A stretch of DNA of 63,919 nucleotides, the filler included, from Globobulimina sp. (taxonomy: Eukaryota): NCBI GenBank assembly GCA_003354225.1. It is 44 parts of 44 records of this genome, joined end to end, with 100 filler letters (N's around TTAATTAATTAA, not from the genome) between each part and the next. Parts side by side here need not be neighbours in the genome. Positions count along the whole stretch, not along the records: positions 50,934 to 52,287 come from PIVH01018077.1; 43 more parts are not named here. One strand, given 5' to 3'. Below, piece after piece: positions 1-55,195 of the stretch. How positions within the stretch are numbered: the first letter of the stretch is position 1; the number at the start of each line of letters is the position of its first letter. The position numbers were made by a program, and so were the translations under genes. The notes under the pieces were generated by a model. That model made no database searches and was not told where the DNA came from. It saw only the letters and a list, made by a program, of their open reading frames with translations.

Positions 1-11
1 TGCTTAATATT

Positions 12-1193
12 ATGCTTATGTTCCATGCCTTTTTCAACTTCATGGCAAGTATCAACGTTACATCCTTTTATAATACTGTTTATACTGCAGAGCCGATTCA
101 TGTACAGCATCGGAAATATTTCAACTGTATCATCAAATTGGATTTGCCACGAATTATTTATAAATATTTGCTATGGTCAGCACAATTGTCAGTTACTAAT
201 CATTTATTTCGGTATGCTATGACTATGCAGATATCATTGGTGCAATTTATTGAATCTTTTTTACAATTTTGTGGCAATGATCAATATTCAAAATGTCTAT
301 TTTCTGATTCATCATTGTTAAACTTTGCATATTTTGTATTTACCGATTCTGCGTTGCATGAATTTAAAGAATGTGCATTTGATTGTAATGGAGAATGGGA
401 ACATGATCCGTACCCAATTCACGAAGTTAAATGCAGAACACATGGCATTTTATCCTGTTTTCATGTTTTGAACGGTGGCAAACGAACTCAATTTGTTGAC
501 AAATTATTGAAATACAAAAATGGACAGTTACTACAAAAAATGTTCATTCATTGTATTGAAAATAGGCCAATTATTATCTGTTTAATAACATCCATTATAA
601 AATACAGCACATCGTCTCAGTGCAAACAATTTATGAAACGTTATTTATTTTTATTCAAATGTGTCCCAGACTTATATGCAAATTTAATTGGTATAGCCAC
701 TGTAAAATTGGAGATGCGGAATGAGGACTGCTGTTTAGATGTTTCATTGACTGGTTTATTGGAGGAATGTGGTCTGAATTTAGTATTTGATTCACAATGG
801 TTAGTCGACTACGAATATTTAGTGTCTTTTGTGCAGCTTAGAAATTCAAAATATTTTAATGATGCTGTCCAATGCAATGAATTGTATTGGATGATAGTTT
901 CTGAATTTTTAAATCTTGATGCTGAAGAAATGAGAGAATCAATTAAACAGAAACGAAAATATTTAAAAATGCGATTCAAAGATACATTTTGTGCGTACAA
1001 GAATTGTCAACAAAAGAATTACAGAGTGAATAATACAAAATTGTGTTCAGGATGTCGTATGGTGTATTATTGCTGCTCGAATCATCAAAAAAAAGATTGG
1101 AACTATGGTGGACATAGATTTATTTGTCAGGTGTTGGCACAACATGTACAACATATGTGTAGAACTGCCATTAACTGGAAATTGGAAATTTAG
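12..1193 (+). CDS. MYND-type zinc finger protein (5' end uncertain)
   Basis: C-terminal CAYKNC...CSGCRMVYYCCSNHQKKDW...HRFIC matches zf-MYND. Confidence 0.85.
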   Translation: MLMFHAFFNFMASINVTSFYNTVYTAEPIHVQHRKYFNCIIKLDLPRIIYKYLLWSAQLSVTNHLFRYAMTMQISLVQFIESFLQFCGNDQYSKCLFSDSSLLNFAYFVFTDSALHEFKECAFDCNGEWEHDPYPIHEVKCRTHGILSCFHVLNGGKRTQFVDKLLKYKNGQLLQKMFIHCIENRPIIICLITSIIKYSTSSQCKQFMKRYLFLFKCVPDLYANLIGIATVKLEMRNEDCCLDVSLTGLLEECGLNLVFDSQWLVDYEYLVSFVQLRNSKYFNDAVQCNELYWMIVSEFLNLDAEEMRESIKQKRKYLKMRFKDTFCAYKNCQQKNYRVNNTKLCSGCRMVYYCCSNHQKKDWNYGGHRFICQVLAQHVQHMCRTAINWKLEI

Positions 1194-1356
1194 TAGTTTG
1201 TATGGAGAATTTTGTGTGTCATTTTTATAATAATATATACACAAAGTTCTTTATGCAAGAGTTAATTTGGCAAAGAAATTTCCATGTGCCACAACTTGCG
1301 CTTCCAAAGAGCCAGTAAAAGTACCAACATCCGTATGATTCCATAAGTCCCTGACT

Positions 1357-1456
1357 NNNNNNNNNNNNNNNNNNNNNNNNNNNNNNNNNNNNNNNNNNNN
1401 TTAATTAATTAANNNNNNNNNNNNNNNNNNNNNNNNNNNNNNNNNNNNNNNNNNNN
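1357..1456. other. Artificial contig linker (44 N + TTAATTAATTAA + 44 N); occurs 43 times, every ~1455 nt
   Basis: The identical 100-nt spacer has stops in all six frames. The intervening contigs are 1356, then 1355, then 1354 bp long (size-sorted). Confidence 0.99.
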
Positions 1457-1531
1457 TTAGTCAAATGTCAACGACTAGTGCTGTCTGAACATACTTATAA
1501 ACAGAAAAACAACAAATGTAGAATAAATAAA

Positions 1532-2707
1532 TTATAATAATAAATTATTTTCTTCATCCTCAGTCATTTGAACTACAGCAATGTTATCATCAGTTTGTAC
1601 CAATGGTTGGAATTCATTTTCTTCTAAAACACCTGTTGAATCAGTTGGAACTTTAAATACTTTCGATGATACTTGTAATGATCTCTTACTATGCCCACCT
1701 GCATGTTCACCATCATCACTCCCTCCACTTTCCTCATCTTCAGTAACGCCATCCAACTCCGTCTGTAGTCTCATTAAACCACTATTATCCCGTGAAGGTT
1801 TCCTATAAATCGTATTATTTTTCATTAATTTCCTTTTTAATGTGCGTCCCTTTTGTGTGGGATCCACTGTAATATCATCCAATTTTTTACCCAAATATTG
1901 CTTTGCTTTGTCTTTATTTGAAGACATATATTTGAAAGACATACCCTTTTTTTTTAAACCAAGATTACTTGATTTAAATCGCTTAATATCATCATATCTG
2001 TCCTTATATTTTACAATTGCCTCATAATTCAATTGTCGATCCCTTTCGTCCAACGACTTGCTCCGTTGCCGCATGGTAACATCTTTTATTTTAAACATCA
2101 TTAACGAGGCAAGAAACACTAAGATTATATTCTCAATGGTTAATATAATGGAAATAGTGCCCATAGATCCTAATTCCTTTGCAGTGTAACCATTGCCGCG
2201 TTCGGGGTATATATAAATATATAACGACATCGCCCATAACATGCCACAGTTGACAGCCGGTGGTAGCAACGAAGCAGAAATAGCCACACCAATCACAGTG
2301 GCGACATAATCGCCGACTACAGATAGTGCTACGCCTACTCCACTCGCAAAAGCTACGATGGCGCCCGTCGTTAAGCCAATTGAATGACCGCGTGATGACA
2401 TTTCGACAGTTGGCCACGGCCATTCTGCGCTTGGATCATTTTTACTGATTCCTAGAAAGACAAATGCCACAATAAAGCCAACTATTATGCAGATTAATAA
2501 ACTCCAAATCTCATTTTTTAAACCTAATATGGCCAATGATTGCGCCCATTTGAATTTGCGCAAATGGACACCAAATGTTAGCGCCAACACCTTAAAACAA
2601 AACAATATTTGACGATATGGCAAGAAATTTCGGAGCCATGCGATAAATCTAAAACAAGGTTGTATGCGCAACTGAAACAATATCCTGTGGTATGTACAAG
2701 TGTACAA
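1532..2707 (-). CDS. DUF389 family membrane protein with a charged C-terminal tail (true 5' end uncertain)
   Basis: IVAFASGVGVALS...IGVAISASLLPPAVNCG and EMSSRG are typical DUF389 motifs. Confidence 0.8.
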   Translation of the reverse strand: MYTCTYHRILFQLRIQPCFRFIAWLRNFLPYRQILFCFKVLALTFGVHLRKFKWAQSLAILGLKNEIWSLLICIIVGFIVAFVFLGISKNDPSAEWPWPTVEMSSRGHSIGLTTGAIVAFASGVGVALSVVGDYVATVIGVAISASLLPPAVNCGMLWAMSLYIYIYPERGNGYTAKELGSMGTISIILTIENIILVFLASLMMFKIKDVTMRQRSKSLDERDRQLNYEAIVKYKDRYDDIKRFKSSNLGLKKKGMSFKYMSSNKDKAKQYLGKKLDDITVDPTQKGRTLKRKLMKNNTIYRKPSRDNSGLMRLQTELDGVTEDEESGGSDDGEHAGGHSKRSLQVSSKVFKVPTDSTGVLEENEFQPLVQTDDNIAVVQMTEDEENNLLL

Positions 2708-2912
2708 ATACTGTTTCCATTTGACCTTATATTGTTTCTATCTGACAGTATAGCGTTGTCATATGACCGTTTTCTTGCCATATACGGTCAAATATAGTGT
2801 CAGATGGTCAAANNNNNNNNNNNNNNNNNNNNNNNNNNNNNNNNNNNNNNNNNNNNTTAATTAATTAANNNNNNNNNNNNNNNNNNNNNNNNNNNNNNNN
2901 NNNNNNNNNNNN

Positions 2913-4268
2913 AACACAAAATATTATAAAAATCCAGCAATAACCATTCCTTGATATGATCTTTGTACATATCGATATATCCATCATTCCCTTGTAATGC
3001 TGATGGTAAAAATTTACACATAGCAGCTGATAATTCGTATGCATTTCGAACATTACTCTCTGTTTTCAACTTTTCTAACATCGTTTTTCTAATATCGTTT
3101 TTCTTCATATTTTGTTGCATAATTATCGCCATAATGAGCCGATAGGTATATTTCGGAAACGTATTAACGTCACAATAACAATGCATCTTTGACTTGCTTT
3201 GACATCGGGTTTTCCCGCATTTTGCAGCTAACGAAAATGCAAAAAAGCTTTGTAATAAATGTTGATAGGTTTTGTTTTCCAATTTAACCGCATAATTATT
3301 GTGACGCAGTGTAAATAATAATTGTGGATGAATTTGGGAGAGACTCGCTATTTTGTTAAATACATTGACATCAAATCCAGATTTTTGTTGATGTTTAATC
3401 TGAAATATAACCATACATTTCTCAAATATTTCGAAATGAGATCGCTTTATAATTTCCTTGGATGGTTCGCATAACTGATTATTTGGCAATGTCACCCAAA
3501 ATGGTTCGCCTATAAATGAATTTTCTTCTTTTCCAATGGATTTCACATTCAATTGGATTTTATTTTTATTTTCTTCATTAAAATCAGATATAATATCTGC
3601 AATTACTACCACTCCATCATCACATTTATAGCCAACACGTTTAATGTTTTTAAAATTCGTCCTCTTGCTCCATTTTTTAAATGTTCTGTCATACTGAGTT
3701 GAGATAACAAATACAAATAACATATATATAAAAACATGGCAACACAGAACATACGGAGTTATTTTTCCCATTTTCGAGCGAAATATTTGCCATATCCTGA
3801 AATTGACATTTTTTTATCCGATAATAGAGCTTAACTATTAATAACAATGTTTTCTTATCACATTTTGTAAATGTGGATAAATTTTCGACAAATCTTTGTT
3901 CTTTAAAACTATCAAACATTGAGCCATTAATTCCTTCCATTACAAAATATTCAACAATTCTATCTTTAAATGGATTTAATTTCAAAAATGCAGGATCTGA
4001 TAATAAATAATTTAAAATGTATAAAATGTCCGCGTATTCACATTGTATTAATGCTTTTATCGAACCATTCCATTTTAAATGTGTTTTTATATAAAACGCG
4101 GTGATTGTAAACACATTGATTTCTGCAATTGTTTGATATAAAAAACACAAATCATTTTGTATCGCTTGTGTGTGGTCAATATAGCGAGTTAAGTCAGATA
4201 CAAATTCATTTTTGGACTTGGATTTAAATTTTGCTCCATCCATTTCATGCAATTCAAAATATTCTATA
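2913..4268 (-). CDS. Hypothetical protein, partial, two exons (intron 3694-3754)
   Basis: Removing a 61-nt GTATGT...TCAG intron joins ORFs 3689-4252 and 2857-3771 in frame. Confidence 0.6.
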
Positions 4269-4368
4269 NNNNNNNNNNNNNNNNNNNNNNNNNNNNNNNN
4301 NNNNNNNNNNNNTTAATTAATTAANNNNNNNNNNNNNNNNNNNNNNNNNNNNNNNNNNNNNNNNNNNN

Positions 4369-5183
4369 AAGACTCATTCCTACTTCATCAAAAGACATAC
4401 ATCGAAAAGCTGTTAGAAAAGTATGGTCTAGTGGGAGCCACTCCTGTCTCAACACCTTTGGATGTGAATGTTCAATTAGTCAAAGATGATGGTGTCAGCA
4501 AGTTGGCAGATCAGAAGCTGTACCAGTCAATTGTCGGAAGTTTACTCTATGTTGCTATCGCTTCTCGTCCCGATATACAACATGCTGTCAGTATGGTGTC
4601 CAAGTTCAATGCTAAACCATCAGAAACTCATATGACAGCCGCAAAAAGAATCCTTCGTTATTTGAAAGAGACGAAAGCATTTGGGTTACAGTATCTGCCA
4701 TCAAGCCCTGATCTGTATGGTTATGCAGATGCAGATTATGCTGGTGATCTGACCGATCGTCACTCAACCTCCGGATTCTGTTTTATGTTGGCCTCTGGCG
4801 TGATTAGTTGGCATTCAAAGAAACAATCTGTTATCGCATTGTCAACTGCCGAAGCGGAATACATAGCATTGTCTCATGCTACTCAAGAAGTCATTTGGTT
4901 AAAGCGGCTCTTTGCTGAAGTAGGAATGAGTCTTGGTTCAATTGTTATTAATGATGACTCACAAGCCGCTATTGCTATGGCTAAGAATCCCATACATCAT
5001 TCAAAGTCGAAACACATCGATATACGGTATCATTTCCTTCGTGAAGAGTTGGAAAAGAAAACATTCAAATTGGAGTACTGTAATACAAAGGAAATGGTCG
5101 CCGACACATTCACAAAACAACTCCCAAGAGTTCAGTATCAAAAGTTAAGAAAGCTCATGGGTGTTCACAACATGGAATGTTAA
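4369..5183 (+). mobile_element. pol: Ty1/copia retrotransposon pol, C-terminal RT and RNase H
   Basis: YQSIVGSLLY...RPDI, GYADADYAGD...STSG, KKQSVIALSTAEAEY, KHIDIRYHF and MVADTFTK motifs. Confidence 0.95.
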
Positions 5184-5190
5184 GTGGGAG

Positions 5191-5483
5191 TGTTGCAGTT
5201 ATATGTTTGTGTAACGTTCATGTTATGTTTGTATAATATATTGTTAAGTTGCGCCATTGGTGCGCCATCTAGGTAGTAGCGTATATTAATGTTGTTGTGT
5301 AGCCCAGTCGCTGCGTCGTCCGGACAGCTGAGCCTCTCTCTGTTGTTCGTTGTTGTACGTGACGCGTCTCTCTCTTGTTGTGGCCGTTGTGGCCTGTTGT
5401 TAGGTTTACTTATTGCTAATTCCTTTGTGGTTTATTGATGATAAACAGAACGACTTTATTATTCCAATAATCTTATTATAACA
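5191..5483 (+). repeat. Copia LTR (TGTT...AACA), preceded by a polypurine tract (AAGTGGGAG, 5182-5190) and followed by PBS-like GGTTATGGGCC (5486-5496)
   Basis: The PPT directly follows the pol stop, the termini are inverted TGTT/AACA, and a copia-type PBS lies 2 nt downstream. Confidence 0.75.
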
Positions 5484-6010
5484 AGGGTTATGGGCCGCTT
5501 GTTTCCCTCCTGTGCTTAATTCTGTTACAAAAAAAATTGTTTATTTTGCTCCTGTTAACGACGATCACTTTCTGCTTTTTTATTTGTCGCTTTGTTGGAA
5601 AAGCGACACAATAAGGTGAATTATTAATTCATTCTTTTTTCGTAGTGGTCTGGCCTTAAGTCTTGCAGGTTGTGCAAAACATGATTACATTTATATACAA
5701 CTTGGTTGTATGTAAACATTTTTTNNNNNNNNNNNNNNNNNNNNNNNNNNNNNNNNNNNNNNNNNNNNTTAATTAATTAANNNNNNNNNNNNNNNNNNNN
5801 NNNNNNNNNNNNNNNNNNNNNNNNTTTACTGTTTAACCACTACTTTTTATGTAAACACAGTGTAGTTGAATATTGTTTTTTTGTTAGGCAAAACATGGAG
5901 TACCCAAAAAAATTTTGATACGCTACGAAAAGTTCACTTTGATAATCACGAGAGAAAAAAATAAGTACTCAAACAAGAAGGTTACGAAAAGTTCACGACC
6001 AAAAAAAAAA

Positions 6011-8737: not shown

Positions 8738-9826
8738 GTGTTATGGATTTTGATATTATTCCGCGGCGTGTACTCGTATATCACGTGGAACACTATCTGG
8801 TCGACTCCGGCCTGGGTCTTCTACGGCAGTTTGGTGATGGTTTGGTTCTTATTCTTCAGTTTGAAAGTGACGCCGAAAACGAATTTCGTAGTATCGGACT
8901 TCTGGCGATGGATGGTGGTGCATATGTGGGTGGAGGTGACTTTCGAGGTCTTCACCACGGTCATCGTGGCCTTCTTGTACCGCGAGATGGGATTAGTAAG
9001 CAAGAAAGCGGCGGAACGGGCGACTTACATCGCTGTGATGCTGTTCTTCTTGACCGCCACCATCGGCGTCGGACATAATTTTTATTGGATTGCGAAGCCG
9101 ACGGGAGTCATTGCGATGGGCTCGGCCTTCTCAACCACGCAAGTCATGCCGCTAATTTTGTTGACAATGGATGCGTGGAAATTCATCCAAATGCGGGAAA
9201 AGGCGGAGTTGGAGCAAGCGAAAGGAAATCAGAAGCACATTATGCGCGGAGTGTGGTTGTTTATGCTCGGCGTCAACTTCTGGAACGTATTCGGTGCCGG
9301 AATCTTGGGCTCGTTTATCAATTTGCCGGTGGTTAATTACTATATGCACTCGACGTATTTGACTGGCAACCACGCCCATGCCGCCATGTGGGGCGTGAAG
9401 GGCAACATTGCCATCGCCGGCGTGCTATTTTGTGTGCAGCATACGGTGAAAGAGGAGTATTGGTCCCCGAAGATTGTGTCGGTGGCCTTTTGGTCGTTGA
9501 ATGGAGGCATTGCGGCTCAGATGTTTTTGTCGATGTTCCCCGCGGGATTGCTCCATATGTATACGGCTATGGCGGAGGGATTGTGGGCCGCGCGGACTCA
9601 CGATATGTACAATTCGGCGCTCTTTCAAAATTTGGCGAAAGGCCGCGCGTTTGGAGGACATATCTTTTTGTGGGGCGGGTTGGTGCCGCTTGTTTACTTT
9701 GTGATTTCCAGGTATTTTTATTTGAAGCCGACCACGAAGAATATTGACAAGAATCGCAAATATGATTCATTTTGGTTGGATGCGGCACATACTGCGCCTT
9801 ATCAGACCCTTAAGAAAGTTAATTAG
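8738..9826 (+). CDS. nod: qNOR-family heme-copper oxidase superfamily protein, Nod (putative nitric oxide dismutase) type; C-terminal half, 5' truncated
   Basis: WRWMVVHMWVEVTFEVF, GVGHNFYWIAKPTG, FSTTQVMP, NFWNVFGAG, NLPVVNYYMH and HAHAAMWGVKG; shows HH->HN and E->Q relative to qNOR. Confidence 0.9.
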   Translation: MLWILILFRGVYSYITWNTIWSTPAWVFYGSLVMVWFLFFSLKVTPKTNFVVSDFWRWMVVHMWVEVTFEVFTTVIVAFLYREMGLVSKKAAERATYIAVMLFFLTATIGVGHNFYWIAKPTGVIAMGSAFSTTQVMPLILLTMDAWKFIQMREKAELEQAKGNQKHIMRGVWLFMLGVNFWNVFGAGILGSFINLPVVNYYMHSTYLTGNHAHAAMWGVKGNIAIAGVLFCVQHTVKEEYWSPKIVSVAFWSLNGGIAAQMFLSMFPAGLLHMYTAMAEGLWAARTHDMYNSALFQNLAKGRAFGGHIFLWGGLVPLVYFVISRYFYLKPTTKNIDKNRKYDSFWLDAAHTAPYQTLKKVN

Positions 9827-16016: not shown

Positions 16017-17372
16017 TGGCAATACCAAATTATCCGAACAACAAAAACGTAAACAACGCCTTTTAAATGATGCAATTATTAAAAATAAACCATCAAATCC
16101 GACATATAATAAAAAAATATTTGTGCCATCAATAACACCAATTCACGATCGATATGACATACAAAATTTGAGTAATAATATTATCGAAACCAAACAAAAT
16201 AATGATCCTACATTGTATTCGATAATTATCTATTTAAAAACAAATAATCCACATTTGTTATATGATCTGCCGTCGCATTTATATCACACTGTATTAAATG
16301 GACGATATTACATTAATCATAATGGCATATTAATGTATAAATTTCAAACAATAAATTGTATGGTTATACCGGATTGTTTACGTAGCAGTGTGTTGCATTG
16401 GGCACACACTAATGTACATAATGGTGGCGCGCGTATGTTGGCTGGGATTACGAGCAGGTATTGGTGGCCTGGATTACGTACTGATATCGCATTATATACC
16501 AAATCGTGCCATAGCTGTCAAACTGTAAAAAGAGGCGGGAAACAACCATTTAAATCAGGAAAAATACAAACGTTTTCCGCTACAGCACCATTTGAATTAA
16601 TTTCAATAGACATAGTTGGACCGTTACCACAAACAAATGATGATAATAGATATATGGTGACAATGATTGATAAATTTTCGCGTTTCTGTATGCTTGTACC
16701 TGTTAAAAATATAAAAACATTAACTGTAATTAAAGCGTATGAGAAATGGATCTCATTATTTGGACCGCCAACAGCGATATTAAGCGATAATGGATCTCAA
16801 TTTATATCTGAAATGTTTAAAGAATATAATAAAGAAAAAGGCATTAAACAGAAATTCGCCACTCCATACTATCCAGAAACAAATGGACAAATAGAGCGCC
16901 TACATAGATGGATTAAGGAGAGATTAACGTTGATAGCAATCGACCTTGGAATTAATTTCGTAGATGGTGATGATGATTGGGACCAATATATTCCATTAAT
17001 TCAACATTCATATAACTCAACACCAAATACAATGACGAAATATTCACCAAACAAAATTATATTTGGTAATGATTTTAAAATTACATTGGATCGCATTAAT
17101 AATGTAATAGTCGATCGTACCATACCATCAGATTATATACGTATGATGAATAATAATAAGAGGATAATACATAATAAAGTCAATATAAATCAAATGCGAT
17201 ACAATAAAAATCGATCGAAGACGTATAATAAATCCCGGAAAAATGCAATAAATTACGCAGTCGGCGATCTTGTTTTGTTGAATATAACTCGTCGATTAAT
17301 AGGTAATAAAAAGAAATTCTCTGCCTCATGGATTGGACCATATGAAATACTCCAAATCAATGACAAACAAAT
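16017..17372 (+). mobile_element. Ty3/gypsy retrotransposon integrase region
   Basis: H-H-C-C zinc finger (HTNVH...CHSC), ISIDIVGP, ILSDNGSQF, YYPETNGQIER and WIGPY. Confidence 0.93.
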
Positions 17373-20282: not shown

Positions 20283-20384
20283 NNNNNNNNNNNNNNNNNN
20301 NNNNNNNNNNNNNNNNNNNNNNNNNNTTAATTAATTAANNNNNNNNNNNNNNNNNNNNNNNNNNNNNNNNNNNNNNNNNNNNCC

Positions 20385-20480
20385 ATTGAAACGCCTTATC
20401 CAATCAATGAGAAACTGTTAGCAGCAATGAAATCATATCAAAAGGCATTTGTAAATGTTAAGAATCGAGGAATTGAGTAA
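20385..20480 (+). CDS. DUF1778 (TacA/AtaR-like) antitoxin, C-terminal fragment
   Basis: IETPYPINEKLLAAMKSY...* overlaps the start of the GNAT gene. Confidence 0.65.
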   Translation: METPYPINEKLLAAMKSYQKAFVNVKNRGIE

Positions 20481-20967
20481 GAAACATAATCGAAAAAAAT
20501 TTGACTGTGATAATTCGGTACTAAATCAATATTTACAAGCAACAGCAAGACAACATAGCGTAAAAGGAATATCCAGAACATTTGTATTGATTGAAGTCGA
20601 AAATCCACTTGAGATATTAGGATTTTTCACGTTAACGTTTTGTGAGATTCAAGCCAAAACATTGCCTGTAGAGAATGCTAAAAAATATCAATCTGCCATC
20701 CCTGCAGCAAAATTAGCACGACTTGCGGTTTCAAGTATGTATCAGCGCCAGGGATTAGGAAAGCACATGATGGTCAATGCAATAGAAAGGACATTGTTGG
20801 TTTCAAAAAATATAGGAATTATTGGATTTTTTGTAGATGCAAAGGATGTTAAAGTTAAAGAGTACTATAAACAGTTTGGATTTTTTACATTGCCTGACAA
20901 TACATTGCAATTATTCTTACCTCTGACGAGACTTCAGCAAACATATGATTTGATTTCAAAAGGATAA
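20455..20967 (+). CDS. GNAT-family toxin (TacT/AtaT-like acetyltransferase), bacterial
   Basis: HNRKKFDC..LNQYL, IPAAKLARLAV..YQRQGLG and VDAKD...YYKQFGF. Confidence 0.88.
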   Translation: MLRIEELSKKHNRKKFDCDNSVLNQYLQATARQHSVKGISRTFVLIEVENPLEILGFFTLTFCEIQAKTLPVENAKKYQSAIPAAKLARLAVSSMYQRQGLGKHMMVNAIERTLLVSKNIGIIGFFVDAKDVKVKEYYKQFGFFTLPDNTLQLFLPLTRLQQTYDLISKG

Positions 20968-21006
20968 ATGTTATAAAAAACAAAAAATGCCCACTAAGGA
21001 GTAAAT

Positions 21007-21327
21007 AATGACCGCTGAGGATGTTAAGAGGTTGAAAAAACAAATTGCCCGCTAAGGACGCGAAGGGCGCTAAGAAAATAAAAAAAATATTTGATCGGTT
21101 TTATGTACTTCAGGGGTGAAAAATGACCACTGAGGATGTTAAGAGGCTGAAAAAAACAAATTGCCCGCTAAGTGCGCGAAGAGCACTAAGAAAACAAAAG
21201 AACTTTCACTCTTCGAGTGCAAAAAAATAACCCCCGAGAGTGTTATGGGGTTGTAATCAAATAAACTGTCCGCCAGGTTCTCTAAGGTCACTTAGTTTTT
21301 AAAAAACTTCGCGTACTTCGCGGGCAA
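21007..21327. repeat. Intergenic repeats: 72-73-bp direct repeats (21007-21078, 21122-21194) and an inverted 21-bp copy (21307-21327)
   Basis: AATGACCRCTGAGGATGTTAAGAGG...TTGCCCGCTAAG..CGCGAAG occurs twice; CTTCGCGTACTTCGCGGGCAA is the reverse complement of 21161-21181 at 19/21. Confidence 0.85.
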
Positions 21328-21369
21328 AACGTTTAAAATTATGATATTAACCTTCAAAACTTCTTCTTT

Positions 21370-21633
21370 TTATTCATAATGCGTCCACATCCTTAAAACA
21401 TGAACGATCCTTTGTCTTTCGTCTACTGAATATACCAGCCGGTGCTTTATGTTAATTCGACGGGAATAGAAGCCTTTAAGATTGCCGACAAGTTTTTCAT
21501 ATGCAGGCGGTGTATGGAATGGATTGTCTTTCAATAAATTGAGCAGAACCTGGGCTTGAGGCTTAAGGCCGGCATTCCGTAATTTCACGGCGTCTTTTAC
21601 AGCTTTGCGGGATAAAATGACATTCCAGCTCAC
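21370..21633 (-). CDS. yoeB: Txe/YoeB family mRNA interferase toxin
   Basis: NPF..PP.YEKLVGNLKGFYSRRINIKHRLVY...RMWTHYE. Confidence 0.92.
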   Translation of the reverse strand: MSWNVILSRKAVKDAVKLRNAGLKPQAQVLLNLLKDNPFHTPPAYEKLVGNLKGFYSRRINIKHRLVYSVDERQRIVHVLRMWTHYE

Positions 21634-21737
21634 CAGTCAAGATGCACCAGGGCAGTTCATTTTACAAGCGGATCCTGGTCAGCCTTGATAATGATTTCAA
21701 CAAAACCGGGAAGCTGGTTAAGATAAAGAGTCTCCCC
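21630..21737 (-). CDS. yefM: Phd/YefM antitoxin C-terminal fragment with an internal TGA at 21657-21659
   Basis: ETLYLNQLPG...DPLVK*TALVHLDW*; the terminal TGA overlaps the GTG start of yoeB. Confidence 0.7.
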
Positions 21738-34932: not shown

Positions 34933-36127
34933 TTACAAAATTATACACTCACCTTATTTATCTTGGAATGCAATTGCAAAACTCAGGCTTTCAAAACTGG
35001 GCCACAAATTTGGGGTACAATACTTCATGTTACAATGTACAACCCTTCAAGGATTATCTTTACCCCCACTTCCAATATTCTACAAAAAATGTGTGGAGAA
35101 CTGGACATTGTTTGCTTCAAAAAGCCCAATTACAAACAAGCAAACAATATTGAAACAACCCATTTTTGGTAATTCCAACATTACATTCAAAAATGGTAAG
35201 GCTTTATTTTTTGACCATTGGACAAAATCAGGGCTTATCAAAATATCAGATATTTGGAATTCTGAAAGAAATGCCTTCATAACACCAGAAACCATAATAA
35301 ATAAATTGACGATTAAGCAAAATTGGATTATAGAATGGATGACCATCAAAAAGTATATACCAAAGATCTGGAAAGAAGTTCTCAATACAGATATGGTAAT
35401 TCCAGAACCACAGAATATGCTATTTACTGGTATAAGTATTGAATGTTATAATAATAATGTTCTTGTAAATGGAAATGAAATCCAATCAGTGAAAAAATTT
35501 AAGTCAAAAGATATATGTAACCATTTGAGCTATCCAAATCCCTATCCACAGGCAATGGCTAAATGGGACCAATACTTTGGAACTAACTTAAATTGGCCAT
35601 TAATTTTTCAGATAAACACAGATACCATAAAAAACCGTAAACACCTTGATTTAAACTGGAAAATTTTCCATAAGGCATTATTTACAGAAGACAGACTCAA
35701 AAAAATGGGTCGCTCAAATGGTATATGTAAAATATGTACTAAGGATAATGAGGATATTCCTCATTTATTCTATAACTGTAAGACAGTATTACCATTGTGG
35801 CAGGAGATCACAAACATCTTAAACAATGACATAGGAATCAATGTTGTTCTTAGTCTGGAAAATATACTATTTGGCCTTCCAGTAGGCTTAGACCTCCCAG
35901 TAAACCTGACTTATAACTTTTTAATATCCACAACAAAGTGGATAATTTGGAAACATAGAAACAATGTTGCCTATGGTAATAAACCAAGGCAGACAGTAAA
36001 TCAGCTAAGACATTATGTCTTATCTGATTGTAAATCTGAGCTAGATATAATTATGAAATCATCAAAAAGGGATAAGTTTGATAAACAGGTCATAGATAGC
36101 CTAACAAGAATCACAAACCAATGGTAA
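34933..36127 (+). mobile_element. Non-LTR retrotransposon (L1/Tx1-like) ORF2 C-terminal zf-RVT region with a TGTA-type 3' microsatellite
   Basis: WKIFHKALFT...CKIC....EDIPHLFYNC...W...KWIIWKHRN; simple repeat at about 36150-36200. Confidence 0.85.
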
Positions 36128-36387
36128 CTGTTTTGGCAGTTCTATCTAATTGTATGTATGTGTGTGTATGTATGTGTTTACGCATGTAGGTATGGATGGA
36201 TGGCTGCATGTAACTTATTTATGCATAACATTTTCAGATCTTTAAAATACACGGTGCTATAATTATATATTTATAATTCATTGTAAANNNNNNNNNNNNN
36301 NNNNNNNNNNNNNNNNNNNNNNNNNNNNNNNTTAATTAATTAANNNNNNNNNNNNNNNNNNNNNNNNNNNNNNNNNNNNNNNNNNNN

Positions 36388-43662: not shown

Positions 43663-43806
43663 ATCTTCTTGTATTTTAATGTTATATATATAAAATTGAC
43701 TAGTTTTACTTTCAATAGTAAAATCTTGTCCAGAATCATTTTCAGTATTTATTATATATTCATTCTTCTTATTCAAAAAATCTTCTGGTATATCATTGTT
43801 TCTCAT
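43663..43806 (-). CDS. Bacterial-type hypothetical protein N-terminus
   Basis: GAGG ribosome-binding site just upstream of the ATG; open to the contig end. Confidence 0.45.
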
Positions 43807-43835
43807 TTTAACCTCTTTAAATTAACTAGACACTG

Positions 43836-44273
43836 TTAGCTAATTATTTTCATTAAAATATTTTTAATAGCAGCAAGAAAAATAAAGTTTAGAAAAATAA
43901 TATCGCTTTTATCGAATCGCATTGCTAATCGTCTGTTTTCTTTAAGTTTTCCAAAGAAGCATTCGATTTTTGACCGCAATTTATAAAGCTCTTTATCATA
44001 AAAAATTGTCTGTTTTCTGTTTCTGCGACCTGGAATTACTGGTATATTATTTTGACTCATTAAAACATTTCTAAATTTATCAGAATCATAACCACGATCA
44101 CCTAAAACAAAACATCCAAAAACATCTTCAAACAGATTCTCAGAAACGGTTATGTCATGATCGTTTCCTCCGCTTAACATCCCTTCAACAACATGACCAT
44201 CAGCCGTCATAACCAAGTTAAATTTTGTAGTTATACCTGCTGGATTTTTCCCTTTTGTTTGCTGCCCCCTTTT
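43836..44273 (-). CDS. IS5 transposase OrfB (DDE), reached by a -1 frameshift at AAAAGGGGG (44265-44273)
   Basis: GDRGYDS and YKLRSKIECFFGKLKENRRLAMRFDK; the -1 frame reads GQQTKGKNPAGITTKFNL. Confidence 0.88.
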   Translation of the reverse strand, partial: KRGQQTKGKNPAGITTKFNLVMTADGHVVEGMLSGGNDHDITVSENLFEDVFGCFVLGDRGYDSDKFRNVLMSQNNIPVIPGRRNRKQTIFYDKELYKLRSKIECFFGKLKENRRLAMRFDKSDIIFLNFIFLAAIKNILMKIIS

Positions 44274-44611
44274 AAGCCACCTCCGTGACGGTGAACCTTA
44301 AATGTTGTGGAATCAATCATGACAACATTCATTTTTAATCGTTTTTTCTGTTGTAAAATCAATAAGATAGACCACCAGACACCTCGCTTACTTCCTTTGC
44401 TAAAACGCAAATAAACGCTGTGCCAATAACCGTAACATTTTGGCAAATCCCTCCATGGAACACCAGTTCTAAGAACATAAAGCATTGCACAAAATACTTG
44501 ATAATCTGAAATCTTTTGTGGTCGACCCGCTTTAGAATAATGCTTTCTTATCAATGGCTTAATGTTAGAATTAAATGCTTGCTTGCTGATAGGATAAAGG
44601 CGTGAGTCCAT
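44231..44611 (-). CDS. IS5 transposase OrfA (DUF4096-like)
   Basis: YVLRTGVPWRDLP..YG.W..VY.RF and MIDST. Confidence 0.9.
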   Translation of the reverse strand: MDSRLYPISKQAFNSNIKPLIRKHYSKAGRPQKISDYQVFCAMLYVLRTGVPWRDLPKCYGYWHSVYLRFSKGSKRGVWWSILLILQQKKRLKMNVVMIDSTTFKVHRHGGGLKGGSKQKGKIQQV

Positions 44612-44679
44612 GATAATTCTCCTTAAAATGTTAATAATAAGGAAAGAATAACATAAAAATAATTAGCTAACAATGCCTA

Positions 44680-44920
44680 GTACAGTAAATATTGATAATC
44701 TTGAATTTAATGTTGATGGTTATGTCTCTGCTGGAATTTATGCTTATGATAACAATACTGTAAACTCTACAGGACTTAAACTTAATATTTATGATTTAAG
44801 CACAGGAATCGAAGCTGGGAATAATACAACGGTGAATTTAGCAAATACTGAAATTAACTCTGGTTATTTTATAGGTTATGGAGTCAGTGCTTGGGATGTT
44901 GGATCTGTTATTAATTCAAC
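44680..44920 (+). pseudogene. Fragment of an autotransporter/adhesin beta-helix passenger-like gene truncated by the IS
   Basis: STVNIDNLEFNVDGYVSAGIYA...GIEA...TVNLANTEI...GYGVSA repeats. Confidence 0.45.
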
Positions 44921-44994
44921 TTTTTCTTTATCATCAAGTTGTCCATCATCACTGATTCTTTTATAAATAGAAGTAATTGGCAATAAACTTATTA

Positions 44995-45017
44995 GGCATT
45001 GTTAGCTAATTATTTTT
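44995..45017 (+). mobile_element. End of a second, oppositely oriented copy of the same IS
   Basis: TA followed by GGCATTGTTAGCTAATTATTTT, the exact reverse complement of 44656-44677, with a different outer flank. Confidence 0.8.
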
Positions 45018-50933: not shown

Positions 50934-52168
50934 TTAATAAATAAATAGACTAAAATATGATTATAGTGTGGAATTCTGTAATCATTGTATTTCCTAAAAA
51001 TGGGCTTTTTCCGTGTTAATGTGATGTCGATGGTTGTGTTAATATAATGTACCAATGAATATAACTCACGAAGTGAGGCCAGGGTATGCAACATAAGCAC
51101 CTCCTGCATTGCAATACTCCCGTCACTAATAAATACACAGACAAAAAACAAAAAAGTGAACTCCGCCATTAAAGACATGAAGAGTTGATGAGTTGAGAAA
51201 GTTTTACTGATAAACAGCAAAAACATTCCCAGTACACACACACTCAAAACACACAAAACACACAAAACTAATCCACACAGAATTTGGCAGTTAAATCTAT
51301 GATAAATGCTTGCTAATATTTCTAAAAGTTGCGGGGGAAAAATAGGTATTACAACCATATAATCTCGTTTTATTTTCATTCCCTCATAGCGGCGAATCTT
51401 TAGCTGTACAAAATATCAATTTATTGAAAAACCTGCAAATACCATGATCCAAAACTGATCACAAAACACTGCCAAAACGTGATCAAACCACCTAAAAATA
51501 TACTGACACAATCAATTGCTACATTAAACGTATAAATCCTCCAAAATCTCCGCATCCATAGACCCATAACAAAATAGATGAACGTAAAGTCACCAACATT
51601 CCAAGCTCCAATGTACAAAACTTGGCAATGCATCCTCGATAATGGGATTCTAACCCTTCTAAAAGTACTCCAAAAACGCATAAGATATAAAATATCATCG
51701 TACCTTTCGTATACGGGTTCAACATCTCCCCCTCCGAGGAGAATCACATCAGATCTAAAGACCCAAATGTGAGTCACTAATATCCAGGACAGAGTGAGAA
51801 ATACCAATGTAAACAATACATAATAAAATAAAATAAAACACCAATAATATAAAATTAAACGCTGAATAATCAAACAACAAAATAACCAATACCAAAGGAA
51901 TAAAATTAATATGTTCCACGCCAGAAAAACACCTAAAAAAACTAAGATAATAATAATACTCCACTGCACGAAATATACGCCATGATCAAAATTTGAACTC
52001 GATAATTGTGCACTTTCAAACATAAAATTAAAATCTATACTGTCGACCGATAAATCAAAGTTTAAATTGAAGAGCGAACAAACTCCATGACCAAGATATC
52101 CTAATCGTTGTAGCTCCGCAAATCGGTTGGTCAAATTCCTACACATTATATCCATAAAGGACGAATAA
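50934..52168 (-). CDS. Single 397-aa hydrophobic ORF on the circle (51379->50934, continuing 52168->51421), weak Cox2 resemblance
   Basis: The junction reads ...NHILVYLFI-NYSSF-MDIMC... without a stop, fusing the two tracked ORFs; only 41 nt remain outside it. Confidence 0.6.
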
Positions 52169-52287
52169 TTAATAAATAAATAGACTAAAATATGATTATA
52201 GTGTGGAATTCTGTAATCATTGTATTTCCTAAAAATGGGCTTTTTCCGTGTTAATGTGATGTCGATGGTTGTGTTAATATAATGTAC
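50934..52287. other. Contig with an exact 119-bp terminal direct repeat (50934-51052 = 52169-52287): a 1235-bp circle or tandem unit
   Basis: Base-by-base identity of the first and last 119 nt. Confidence 0.92.
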
Positions 52288-54163: not shown

Positions 54164-55195
54164 TTATTTTTCCAAATCTTTTTCCATTTTATTAAGCTCA
54201 TTAACCCCATCACACATAAACTGCACCAACGTAAGCTCAGAATATCCCATTCGAAATTTGTTACTGATATCCACCACGGCATCCGCTGCAATCTCCGAAT
54301 GCTCGCCATACAATCCACGGATCTGCATCTTATATTTGATGCCGATGTCATTCAATTTGTCTAAACCTTCCTTGCATAACTCGGGCAACGAGATATGCAC
54401 AGACGCTCTCAATCCGGTCCCCAAATTGGTGGGACAACACGTCACATTTCCATACTGTTTGTCGAACAAAAAGCCATTCGATTTGCCATTGGTCACCTTC
54501 TTGATGCCGGCTTCCATGGCAATCACCGCCTTCTTCAACCGATCAAACACTCCCTTCACATTATTCGTCCTCTCCATCGAGATCAGCCGTAAATGGTCGC
54601 CTTCATTCAACCACACAATGAACGTCTTGGCCTCATTCAAGTAAATACCGCGTCCTTTGGGGAACCATAAATGATATCCGCTGTCAGTCTGCATCGGGTC
54701 GTCATCGCCGGAAAACAAAAAGTGATCATCGATGAATTGCTGTCGCACTTTCTCCTCCATCCCATACAACGGATAATATTGTCCTTTTAAGTCGGCGTCG
54801 CTCTGCAAAGTCGCAAACACCTTTTTCATAATGCCCTCAATCTCCAATTTCACCGCAACGTCGGTCTGCGACGGAGCCAACGGGAAACCATCGATGTTGC
54901 GCGCCACCCGGATTCGCGTCGATTTTATGTTTTTGATGTTGGGAATGTCCCCTTCATTGATGCCTTGCTTCTCGTCCGAGTCTGCGGAAAACGACGATTT
55001 GATGCCGTTGTGATACGTCTTCGTCTGATGATAGTCTTCGATCACAACTCCAAAGATGTCATTGAACAACGAATACGACTCGATATCGCCCGCATGAATA
55101 CCCACCAAACTCTGCGGGTTTTTCACCCCGGTATTTATCGCATTTTTGAGCATGAAGCCATTGGCCGTCTTCAACTCCTTCAACTTCTCAAATAA
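54164..55195 (-). CDS. ATP:guanido phosphotransferase (arginine kinase-like), 5' truncated
   Basis: STRIRVARN, DDHFLF, GRGIY, NEGDHLR, CPTNLGTGLRASVH, RGLYGEHS and DISNK.RMG. Confidence 0.93.
   Translation of the reverse strand, partial: LFEKLKELKTANGFMLKNAINTGVKNPQSLVGIHAGDIESYSLFNDIFGVVIEDYHQTKTYHNGIKSSFSADSDEKQGINEGDIPNIKNIKSTRIRVARNIDGFPLAPSQTDVAVKLEIEGIMKKVFATLQSDADLKGQYYPLYGMEEKVRQQFIDDHFLFSGDDDPMQTDSGYHLWFPKGRGIYLNEAKTFIVWLNEGDHLRLISMERTNNVKGVFDRLKKAVIAMEAGIKKVTNGKSNGFLFDKQYGNVTCCPTNLGTGLRASVHISLPELCKEGLDKLNDIGIKYKMQIRGLYGEHSEIAADAVVDISNKFRMGYSELTLVQFMCDGVNELNKMEKDLEK

What the first reader, a model, noticed from the sequence alone, without database searches (positions are those of the whole stretch)
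50934..52287. 1235-bp circular (or tandem) element almost filled by one 397-aa membrane-protein ORF
Seen: the first and last 119 nt are identical, as expected when an assembler reports a circular path. On circularisation the two minus-strand ORFs fuse in frame (…VYLFI-NYSSF-MDIM…) into 397 codons, leaving 41 nt outside the ORF. The coding strand is G/T-skewed, intronless and rich in Phe/Leu/Ile/Trp, unlike the host contigs. No Rep, integrase or transposase motif is visible. Inference: a single-gene minicircle (organelle-type or a novel extrachromosomal element), which strand-displacement amplification would enrich.
Basis: partly seen in the sequence, partly recalled or inferred. Interest (0 to 1): 0.75.

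Follow-up and report, generated by a model that had tools for sequence, protein, structure and literature searches.

The report
Non-autonomous Penelope-like element keeping open frame
The apparent one-gene minicircle is most likely one repeat unit of a small jumping element that depends on a Penelope-like retrotransposon of a foraminiferan, and it is unusual because its long reading frame stays free of stop codons while the protein sequence itself appears to drift.

Summary
In detail: 119-nt terminal repeat, 1235-nt unit, 397-codon fused frame. A second assembly of reads spans the junction. The interpretation mostly fails. The unit belongs to a nuclear repeat family. It shares its head (about 160 nt from the start codon) and its 3' end with endonuclease-bearing Penelope-like elements (PLEs) in the same assembly. 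Relatives lie between host flanks with pseudo-LTRs or as 5'-truncated copies. It is a non-autonomous PLE derivative; tandem array versus free circle is unresolved. Two features are not textbook. (1) The frame is open far beyond chance in four loops (0 of 500 simulations) and runs across the unit junction, yet the body evolves at pN/pS 0.85-0.94 (neutral simulation 0.76; PLE reverse transcriptase 0.15), with compensated frameshifts. The hydrophobicity follows from the T-rich strand. (2) The partner's hammerhead is absent; a covarying, probably pseudoknotted RNA without Rfam match sits in its place. Best guess: being translated matters, not the protein. The tail part does show dN/dS below 1.

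The parts
50934..52168 (-). One 1235-nt unit of a non-autonomous Penelope-like element (head, body, spacer, structured RNA, tail), closed on itself in the assembly
52169..52287 (.). 119-nt duplicate of 50934-51052: assembly overlap, the same length as in 7 other loop contigs held
52030..52168 (-). Head: homologous in DNA to the first ~160 nt of the autonomous PLE ORF; PLE-equivalent ATG at 52155-52153; read in different frames in different family members; inferred binding site of the PLE protein. Lower boundary approximate
   Evidence: function inferred from PMC11167929
51424..52029 (-). Body: T-rich, stop-free in one frame, not found in the autonomous PLE contigs tested, weakly homologous to the bodies of other family members
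   Evidence: (20.5 bits; best of 200 shuffles 2.4)
51421..51423 (-). TAA stop of the long frame; changed in the related contigs of runs X6 and X8
51170..51420 (-).
51055..51195 (-). Block A: conserved structured RNA (closing helix, side hairpin, long stem with inner hairpin, probable pseudoknot); begins with the conserved ATG at 51169; lies where the autonomous element has its hammerhead; no Rfam match
50934..51169 (-). First 236 nt of the conserved 327-codon frame, which continues at 52168 only in a tandem or circular template
50934..50970 (-). Tail: short motif shared with the autonomous PLE (50968-50961); flanked relatives end about 15-40 nt behind it, just before the head

Best explanation
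The contig is one unit of a non-autonomous derivative of an endonuclease-bearing Penelope-like element (PLE) in a foraminiferan nuclear genome, collapsed by the assembler from a head-to-tail array or present as a circle. Shown: it keeps the PLE head and 3' end, has no RT or endonuclease, and relatives are integrated with pseudo-LTRs or 5' truncation. Inferred mechanism: a transcript starts in the upstream unit; the PLE protein, supplied in trans, binds the head and starts reverse transcription just upstream of it, at a nicked AT-rich target. Because the head lies behind the start point, only a tandem or circular template can yield a whole unit; a lone copy yields tail-only insertions, which are common here. 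Inferred for the ORF: source elements are selected to be translated from block A across the junction and the head to near the next block A (most likely to escape nonsense-mediated decay, or to keep the head in a translated state as in the parent), while the amino-acid sequence of the body is close to free. Step odds: PLE derivative 0.9; trans-mobilisation as described 0.7; translation matters more than the protein 0.55.
For: Head homology to PLE contigs, ending near +160 (9 of 22 contigs tested hit, profile positions 1-171 only). L024 ORF matches proteins with RVT_1, PF26215 and GIY-YIG domains (E 2e-9). L083 (C862) carries PLE RT sequence between ~128-nt hammerhead-bearing direct repeats, with a 16-nt duplicated flank read by eye. 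L039 is a family copy with 164-nt direct repeats (2 mismatches) between unique flanks. 13 non-autonomous and 2 autonomous flanked ends printed leave the element before the head. One short copy has an 18-nt target duplication. Run X6 (another study) holds a ~94% identical linear copy with about 59 nt of terminal redundancy and other sequence on both sides. ORF: 0 of 500 under three null models in 4 loops; 0-4 of 2000 neutral lineages stay stop-free at 10% divergence; substitutions by codon position 80/66/77 against 151/69/407 in RT; close pairs regain register within about 60 nt after frameshifting indels; the two hammerhead-bearing loops have no ORF over 88 codons. In the Anolis PLE the minimal RNA needs the first 172 nt of the ORF and RT starts internally (PMC11167929).
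Against: No autonomous contig tested carries block A, so the direct parent of that part is unknown. Only 1 of 8 flanked copies tested gave a clear target duplication. At least two copies (L023, L101) run on into the head before leaving the element, and in the Anolis element RT starts at +111 to +118, not upstream of the ATG. The tail part of the ORF has dN/dS below 1 in 11 of 12 pairs (0.26-1.18), though RNA structure overlaps it; two of the four body pairs pooled have pN/pS near 0.6. Translation, transcription of this unit and mobilisation were not observed. Pfam itself found no RT or GIY-YIG domain in L024 or L078 and PDB gave no hit: the PLE call rests on remote protein hits, motifs read by eye and architecture.
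Confidence: 0.68

Rival explanations
1. Same PLE derivative, but the ORF encodes a functional, fast-evolving membrane protein (an accessory cargo like the transmembrane ORFs of Terminons); pN/pS near 1 reflects a mix of constraint and positive selection or loose hydrophobic constraint.
For: A shared ATG in block A; tail dN/dS below 1 in 11 of 12 pairs; in-frame indels common; 3-6 hydrophobic stretches; fragments called as proteins in EukProt; Terminons carry ORFs with transmembrane domains (PMC6431247).
Against: No codon-position bias in the body (P 0.48); the conserved DNA blocks are read in up to three frames in different members; hydropathy change of 80 replacements not below expectation (P 0.135); target only 18% identical to L010 in the protein alignment; fold models unreliable (pLDDT 54 and 45).
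Confidence: 0.22
2. Physical state: this unit is a free extrachromosomal DNA circle (circularised cDNA or pLTR-pLTR recombination product of the PLE derivative), enriched by whole-genome amplification. Compatible with the best explanation.
For: The X1 contig runs 1164 nt through the junction with no listed branch to a flank except those of the separate copy L016 (10 loose ends not shown); the body has no other match in G000; 5 of 8 near-full family units are loops against 0 of 15 PLE RT contigs.
Against: Depth is modest (16.5 against 10-11.5 for the L016 flank pieces; the tool warns depth is no copy number); array ends can be lost in assembly; PLE derivatives form multicopy head-to-tail insertions (PMC8557442); the X6 relative is linear with flanks; a host-gene contig (L042) has the same 119-nt closure.
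Confidence: 0.35
3. Artefact: a single chromosomal copy whose pseudo-LTR was collapsed, or an amplification chimera; the fused ORF does not exist.
For: LTR-like repeats collapse in short-read graphs; L016 shares block A at 94% and touches the loop in the X1 graph.
Against: The same tail-to-head adjacency, with the frame open across it, is inside linear contigs L006, L007, L039; L016 differs from the loop on both sides of the shared stretch.
Confidence: 0.06
4. One reading: an organelle-type or stand-alone single-gene minicircle unrelated to retroelements.
For: Closed path, strand skew, intronless frame filling 97% of the unit.
Against: DNA homology to PLE heads and tails, flanked nuclear copies, no organellar domain; TGA falls as a stop at the same place in three members under table 1 or 11.
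Confidence: 0.03

Closest known systems
Putatively non-autonomous Chlamys PLEs such as MRC1 of Chlamydomonas reinhardtii (Craig et al. 2021, PMC8557442; 12 passages seen)
   Same: No RT, pseudo-LTRs, head-to-tail copies, similarity to autonomous families at the 3' end, no canonical hammerhead.
   Different: Partner here has a C-terminal GIY-YIG domain and a hammerhead; the derivative also keeps the ORF head and has a long open frame across the junction. The passages seen mention no such ORF and the main text has no 'Rhizaria' or 'foraminifer'; supplements not seen.
Animal non-LTR retrozymes (Cervera and de la Pena 2020, PMC7229834, 12 passages; bioRxiv 10.64898/2026.07.22.740005, part 1 of 5)
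   Same: Non-autonomous, tandem, low GC, proposed to derive from PLE pseudo-LTRs. The loops L015 (663 nt) and L018 (800 nt) in this assembly fit this kind well.
   Different: Retrozymes have a type I hammerhead in each unit, ~300-nt monomers and encode no protein; the target is 1235 nt, has no hammerhead and has a 327-codon frame.
Canonical EN+ PLE, Poseidon of Anolis carolinensis (Frangieh et al. 2024, PMC11167929; parts 1-2 of 4 read)
   Same: Tandem organisation; the first ~170 nt of the ORF are the cis element, matching the length of head kept here.
   Different: Autonomous; RT starts 111-118 nt inside the ORF, whereas most flanked copies here end just before the ATG.
Terminons of bdelloid rotifers (as described in PMC6431247; 9 passages seen)
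   Same: PLE-class elements carrying accessory ORFs, some with transmembrane domains, in head-to-tail arrays.
   Different: Giant, telomere-attached, hammerhead at the 3' end; no telomeric repeats were looked for here and the unit has a single ORF.
[quoted passage not shown]
   Same: The autonomous partner and the non-coding loops carry this core variant with a palindromic helix III.
   Different: Absent from the target on both strands.

Membership tests
Non-autonomous Penelope-like derivative | Shares terminal cis-sequences with an autonomous PLE of the same genome | tested here: met
   Head and tail homology; partner ORF matches RVT_1/GIY-YIG proteins
Non-autonomous Penelope-like derivative | Encodes no RT or endonuclease | tested here: met
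Non-autonomous Penelope-like derivative | Partial-tandem insertions that form pseudo-LTRs | tested here: met
   L039 164-nt repeats, L012, and the X6 contig for the target's own subfamily; not shown for the target contig itself
Non-autonomous Penelope-like derivative | 5'-truncated copies with a common 3' end | tested here: met
   exceptions L023 and L101
Non-autonomous Penelope-like derivative | Target-site duplications | tested here: inconclusive
   1 of 8 flanked copies clear, 18 nt
Non-autonomous Penelope-like derivative | Mobilised in trans by the PLE protein | not testable with these tools
   inferred from shared ends
Non-LTR retrozyme | Type I hammerhead in each unit | tested here: not met
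   own scan finds it in 7 other loci, none in the target; Rfam none, but Rfam also missed the variant in the partner
Non-LTR retrozyme | Short and non-coding monomer | tested here: not met
   1235 nt, 327-409 open codons
Non-LTR retrozyme | Accumulates as circular RNA | not testable with these tools
   no raw RNA reads offered
Autonomous EN+ PLE | Single ORF with RT and GIY-YIG endonuclease | tested here: not met
   absent from the target; present in L024
Organelle gene minicircle | Recognisable organellar gene, and different genes around a shared constant region | tested here: not met
   no Pfam hit; loops carry homologous bodies; copies lie between host flanks
Obelisk or viroid-like RNA (features recalled) | Rod-like fold of the whole unit | tested here: not met
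   multibranched minimum-energy and centroid folds of the linearised unit
Known small self-cleaving ribozyme (block A) | Match to an Rfam ribozyme family | tested here: not met
   4 weak non-ribozyme hits, best E 0.24; cleavage itself not testable

The most novel reading that the evidence does not exclude
A new kind of PLE parasite in foraminifera: the hammerhead has been replaced by an undescribed pseudoknotted RNA (possibly self-cleaving, or a translation-start element), the element propagates only from multimeric or circular templates, and it must be translated across its own unit junction by a frame whose protein sequence is irrelevant, so that selection acts on the absence of stop codons alone.
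Probability: 0.2. Interest if true: 0.8.

Novelty: new variant of a known kind. Interest (0 to 1): 0.55.

Why it matters
Non-autonomous PLE derivatives are known, but those I could read about are described as non-coding or without mention of an ORF. A family whose 260-400-codon frame stays stop-free over 20-25% DNA divergence while its body drifts at about the neutral rate would be a clean natural case of selection for translation as such, and makes testable why retroelement RNAs need ribosomes. The family also marks, by what it keeps, the cis-signals of a protist PLE (head of about 160 nt, 3' end just before it), which can be set against the one PLE studied in vitro, and offers a compact structured RNA as a ribozyme candidate. 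It is also a warning that loop contigs with one long hydrophobic ORF in amplified protist assemblies can be retroelement units.

Tried and rejected
Organellar gene (a nad5-like look of one stretch, my own impression): no Pfam support, table 4 adds nothing shared. Protein search of G000 with the target's second half found only itself. Homologue searches with the family alignment found only two EukProt fragments of the same family; ESM Atlas no usable hit; fold models too poor to search, so no fold search was run. PDB search with the PLE protein: 0 hits. Rfam: only two tRNAs in flanks and weak hits. First hammerhead script found nothing because of a regular-expression fault; redone. Metagenome scans for block A: 0 matches, then 4 matches that cover only 17-25 nt of the model and are chance. 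Three of the 14-nt head matches in G000 (L096, L100, L103) are chance. No RNA holder listed for the stretch; runs X6 and X8 are RNA by guess only, so nothing is claimed on expression; runs X5-X8 hold small word shares, and X5 showed only short pieces. Classification of the 40 listed X6 substitutions (8 synonymous, 30 not) is not used as evidence: 55 more were not shown and some lie in frameshifted stretches; one apparent new stop disappears once the neighbouring 3-nt deletion is taken into account. The RNA model of block A could not be run over the whole assembly, so block A was sought only in 41 held sources and by BLAST-type search. Literature: searches (listings only, except the six papers named) showed no report of a foraminiferan PLE or of such an ORF; the library lacks most subscription journals and Repbase, and supplements were not read.

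Full report
Observation. The window is a string of 44 short contigs joined by N spacers; the finding is one of them, G000:C18077 (L001), 1354 nt, and the only one with a terminal repeat. The repeat is exactly 119 nt, the unit 1235 nt, and closing it fuses two minus-strand frames into 409 stop-free codons, 397 from the ATG at 51379. This length was reached in 0 of 500 simulations under Markov orders 1, 2 and 3. A k-mer assembly of run X1, which may be the source sample, has a 1164-nt contig across the junction at flat depth 16.5.

Host. Two EukProt fragments of this ORF family are labelled Globobulimina turgida and the nearest relative of the associated reverse transcriptase Bolivina argentea, so the host is a foraminiferan. 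That the EukProt set comes from transcripts is my recall and was not checked.

A repeat family, not a lone circle. A DNA search of the assembly gave 29 matches on 23 contigs including itself; a search with the relative L010 gave 42 matches. Two blocks are shared. Block B, the head (window about 52030-52168), matches the start of a 1384-codon ORF in L024. That ORF matches proteins with RVT_1, PF26215 and GIY-YIG domains (E 2e-9 and 1e-7); Pfam and PDB did not recognise it directly. Its RT region has 76 matches in the assembly. A profile of the family head and body hits 9 of 22 PLE-related contigs, only over positions 1-171. Seven loci carry, just upstream of the head, a minimal type I hammerhead with a U3-A8 core and palindromic helix III, a variant described for Cercyon PLEs (PMC4209133, passages). 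L083 has PLE RT sequence between direct repeats of about 128 nt that hold this hammerhead, with a 16-nt duplicated flank seen by eye. These are canonical endonuclease-bearing Penelope-like elements.

The target's family is integrated like a PLE. L039 has 164-nt direct repeats with 2 mismatches around head and body, between unique flanks. Many short copies hold only the tail, start at different places and end together: of 24 loci examined, 13 non-autonomous and 2 autonomous flanked ends printed, and all leave the element about 15-40 nt behind the shared tail motif, before the head (L035 and L041 look like one site; four loci did not pass my print filter). L023 and L101 run on into the head. One of 8 flanked copies tested has a clear 18-nt target duplication. 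For the target's own subfamily, run X6 of another study has a 2061-nt contig with 76 differences over about 1200 nt that covers 52248 down to 50955, about 59 nt more than one unit, with other sequence on both sides. Non-autonomous PLEs with pseudo-LTRs and head-to-tail copies are known (PMC8557442, passages), as are hammerhead-bearing retrozymes proposed to derive from PLEs (PMC7229834, passages; bioRxiv 10.64898/2026.07.22.740005, part 1 of 5).

Mechanism. In the Anolis PLE the minimal RNA needs the first 172 nt of the ORF and reverse transcription starts inside the RNA (PMC11167929, parts 1-2 of 4). The family here keeps about that much head, and reads it in up to three different frames, so the head is kept as nucleic acid. 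Since most insertions end just before the head, I infer that the protein binds the head and primes upstream of it. A whole unit can then be copied only when another head follows it, that is from a tandem or circular template; a lone copy gives tail-only insertions. This fits the assembly: 8 of 51 contigs held whole close with 119 nt, namely 5 of 8 near-full family units, two hammerhead-bearing non-coding units (L015, L018) and one host-gene contig (L042), against 0 of 15 RT-bearing contigs. These steps are inferred, not shown.

Circle or array. No flanked copy of the target body exists in G000 at the sensitivity of the search, and the X1 contig shows no listed branch other than to the separate copy L016 (10 loose ends not shown). 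That allows a free circle or an array whose ends were lost. I give the circle about 0.35.

The ORF. The start shared by relatives is the ATG at 51169, at the 5' edge of block A; from it the frame is 327 codons in the target and 405, 314, 306 and 261 in four other loops, and at least 272 in L006. It runs through the tail and across the junction, so it is complete only with a long pseudo-LTR, a tandem or a circle. Openness is selected: 0 of 500 in four loops, and 0-4 of 2000 neutrally mutated copies stay stop-free at 10% divergence, 39-93 at 5%. X6 shows net in-frame indels (3, 6, 3, 93 nt; the last also in X8) and two +1/-1 pairs, one unpaired 1-nt deletion just before the stop, and 5 indels not shown. 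Yet the body shows little amino-acid constraint: four pairs pooled give substitutions 80/66/77 by codon position (P 0.48) and pN/pS 0.85, or 0.94 beyond the head, against a neutral no-stop simulation of 0.76 (0.54-1.08) and 0.15 with 151/69/407 for the PLE RT (codons differing at all three positions were dropped). All 28 body pairs range 0.53-2.12. Close pairs leave and regain register within about 60 nt. Against a purely neutral reading: two of the four pooled pairs are near 0.6, and the tail part is below 1 in 11 of 12 pairs, where RNA structure overlaps the frame. Hydrophobicity is no evidence: the +1 frame scores as high, and the T-rich 3' UTR of the autonomous element higher; replacements are not significantly conservative (P 0.135). 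Fold models are unreliable. I therefore favour selection for being translated, most simply against nonsense-mediated decay (recalled background, not tested in this lineage), over a sequence-specific membrane protein. The non-coding hammerhead loops are an internal contrast.

Block A. The target has no hammerhead on either strand. Between the TG-rich box and the tail motif, where the partner has its hammerhead, the family has a conserved RNA. For the structure I drew from these sequences, 95.7% of 447 cells pair, 4 of 29 pairs change on both sides, and slid controls reach 31-54% (16 sequences; related sequences and a structure derived from them inflate such scores). RNAalifold finds the same nested helices. 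The four pseudoknot pairs are almost invariant and so untested. No Rfam family matches, and the model finds it in no autonomous contig among 41 sources at E below 0.1. Its role (ribozyme, start element, protein-binding site) is open.

Verdict. Not an organelle minicircle, and not categorically new: a non-autonomous PLE derivative. It is a new variant in two respects that I did not find in print in the searches: a junction-spanning frame held open with near-neutral sequence, and an unknown structured RNA in place of the hammerhead. Supplements of the cited papers, which list PLE families, were not read. Earlier notes of this scan agree that the assembly holds PLEs with U3-A8 hammerheads; none matched this sequence. 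Interest 0.55.

Noticed in passing
L015 (G000:C33772) and L018 (G000:C28738): Loops of 663 and 800 nt with the U3-A8 minimal hammerhead, the PLE head and no long ORF: retrozyme-like derivatives of the same PLE.
   Followed up: partly
L083 (G000:C862) 1-4893: Near-complete autonomous PLE with hammerhead-bearing direct repeats and a duplicated AT-rich flank; its ORF is in pieces (longest 966 and 366 codons).
   Followed up: partly
L078-L082, L090-L092 (for example G000:C342, C924, C2495): A second, distant group of PLE-like RT ORFs (about 31-33% identity to L024, up to 1593 codons) with no hit to the family head.
   Followed up: no
L012 (G000:C5795) 165-1214: A 2481-nt loop holding a whole pLTR-body-pLTR copy plus a 1050-nt unrelated spacer; its upstream repeat has two deletions (2 and 7 nt) that restore the frame.
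   Followed up: partly
L042 (G000:C1465) 1-4214: A contig with host-like genes (a sugar-transporter-like ORF by eye and a 558-codon ORF without Pfam hit) that also closes with a 119-nt repeat and holds a short tail insertion.
   Followed up: no
window 8738-9823 (+): Heme-copper oxidase family ORF (PF00115, E 1e-31); looks like a quinol-dependent nitric oxide reductase to me (recalled, not tested), of interest in a foraminiferan assembly.
   Followed up: partly
window 54167-55195 (-): Phosphagen kinase ORF (PF00217, PF02807).
   Followed up: no
window 4369-5724, 16017-17372, 34933-36287, 43663-45017, 20383-21737: By eye from translations: copia-like RT/RNase H, gypsy-like integrase, a LINE-like C-terminus, a split IS5-like transposase and a bacterial-type GNAT acetyltransferase; the last two suggest bacterial DNA in the assembly.
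   Followed up: no
L016 (G000:C5083): A solo block A copy 94% identical to the target lies about 500 nt upstream of a 291-codon ORF with the look of a restriction-like endonuclease of R2-type elements (by eye).
   Followed up: no
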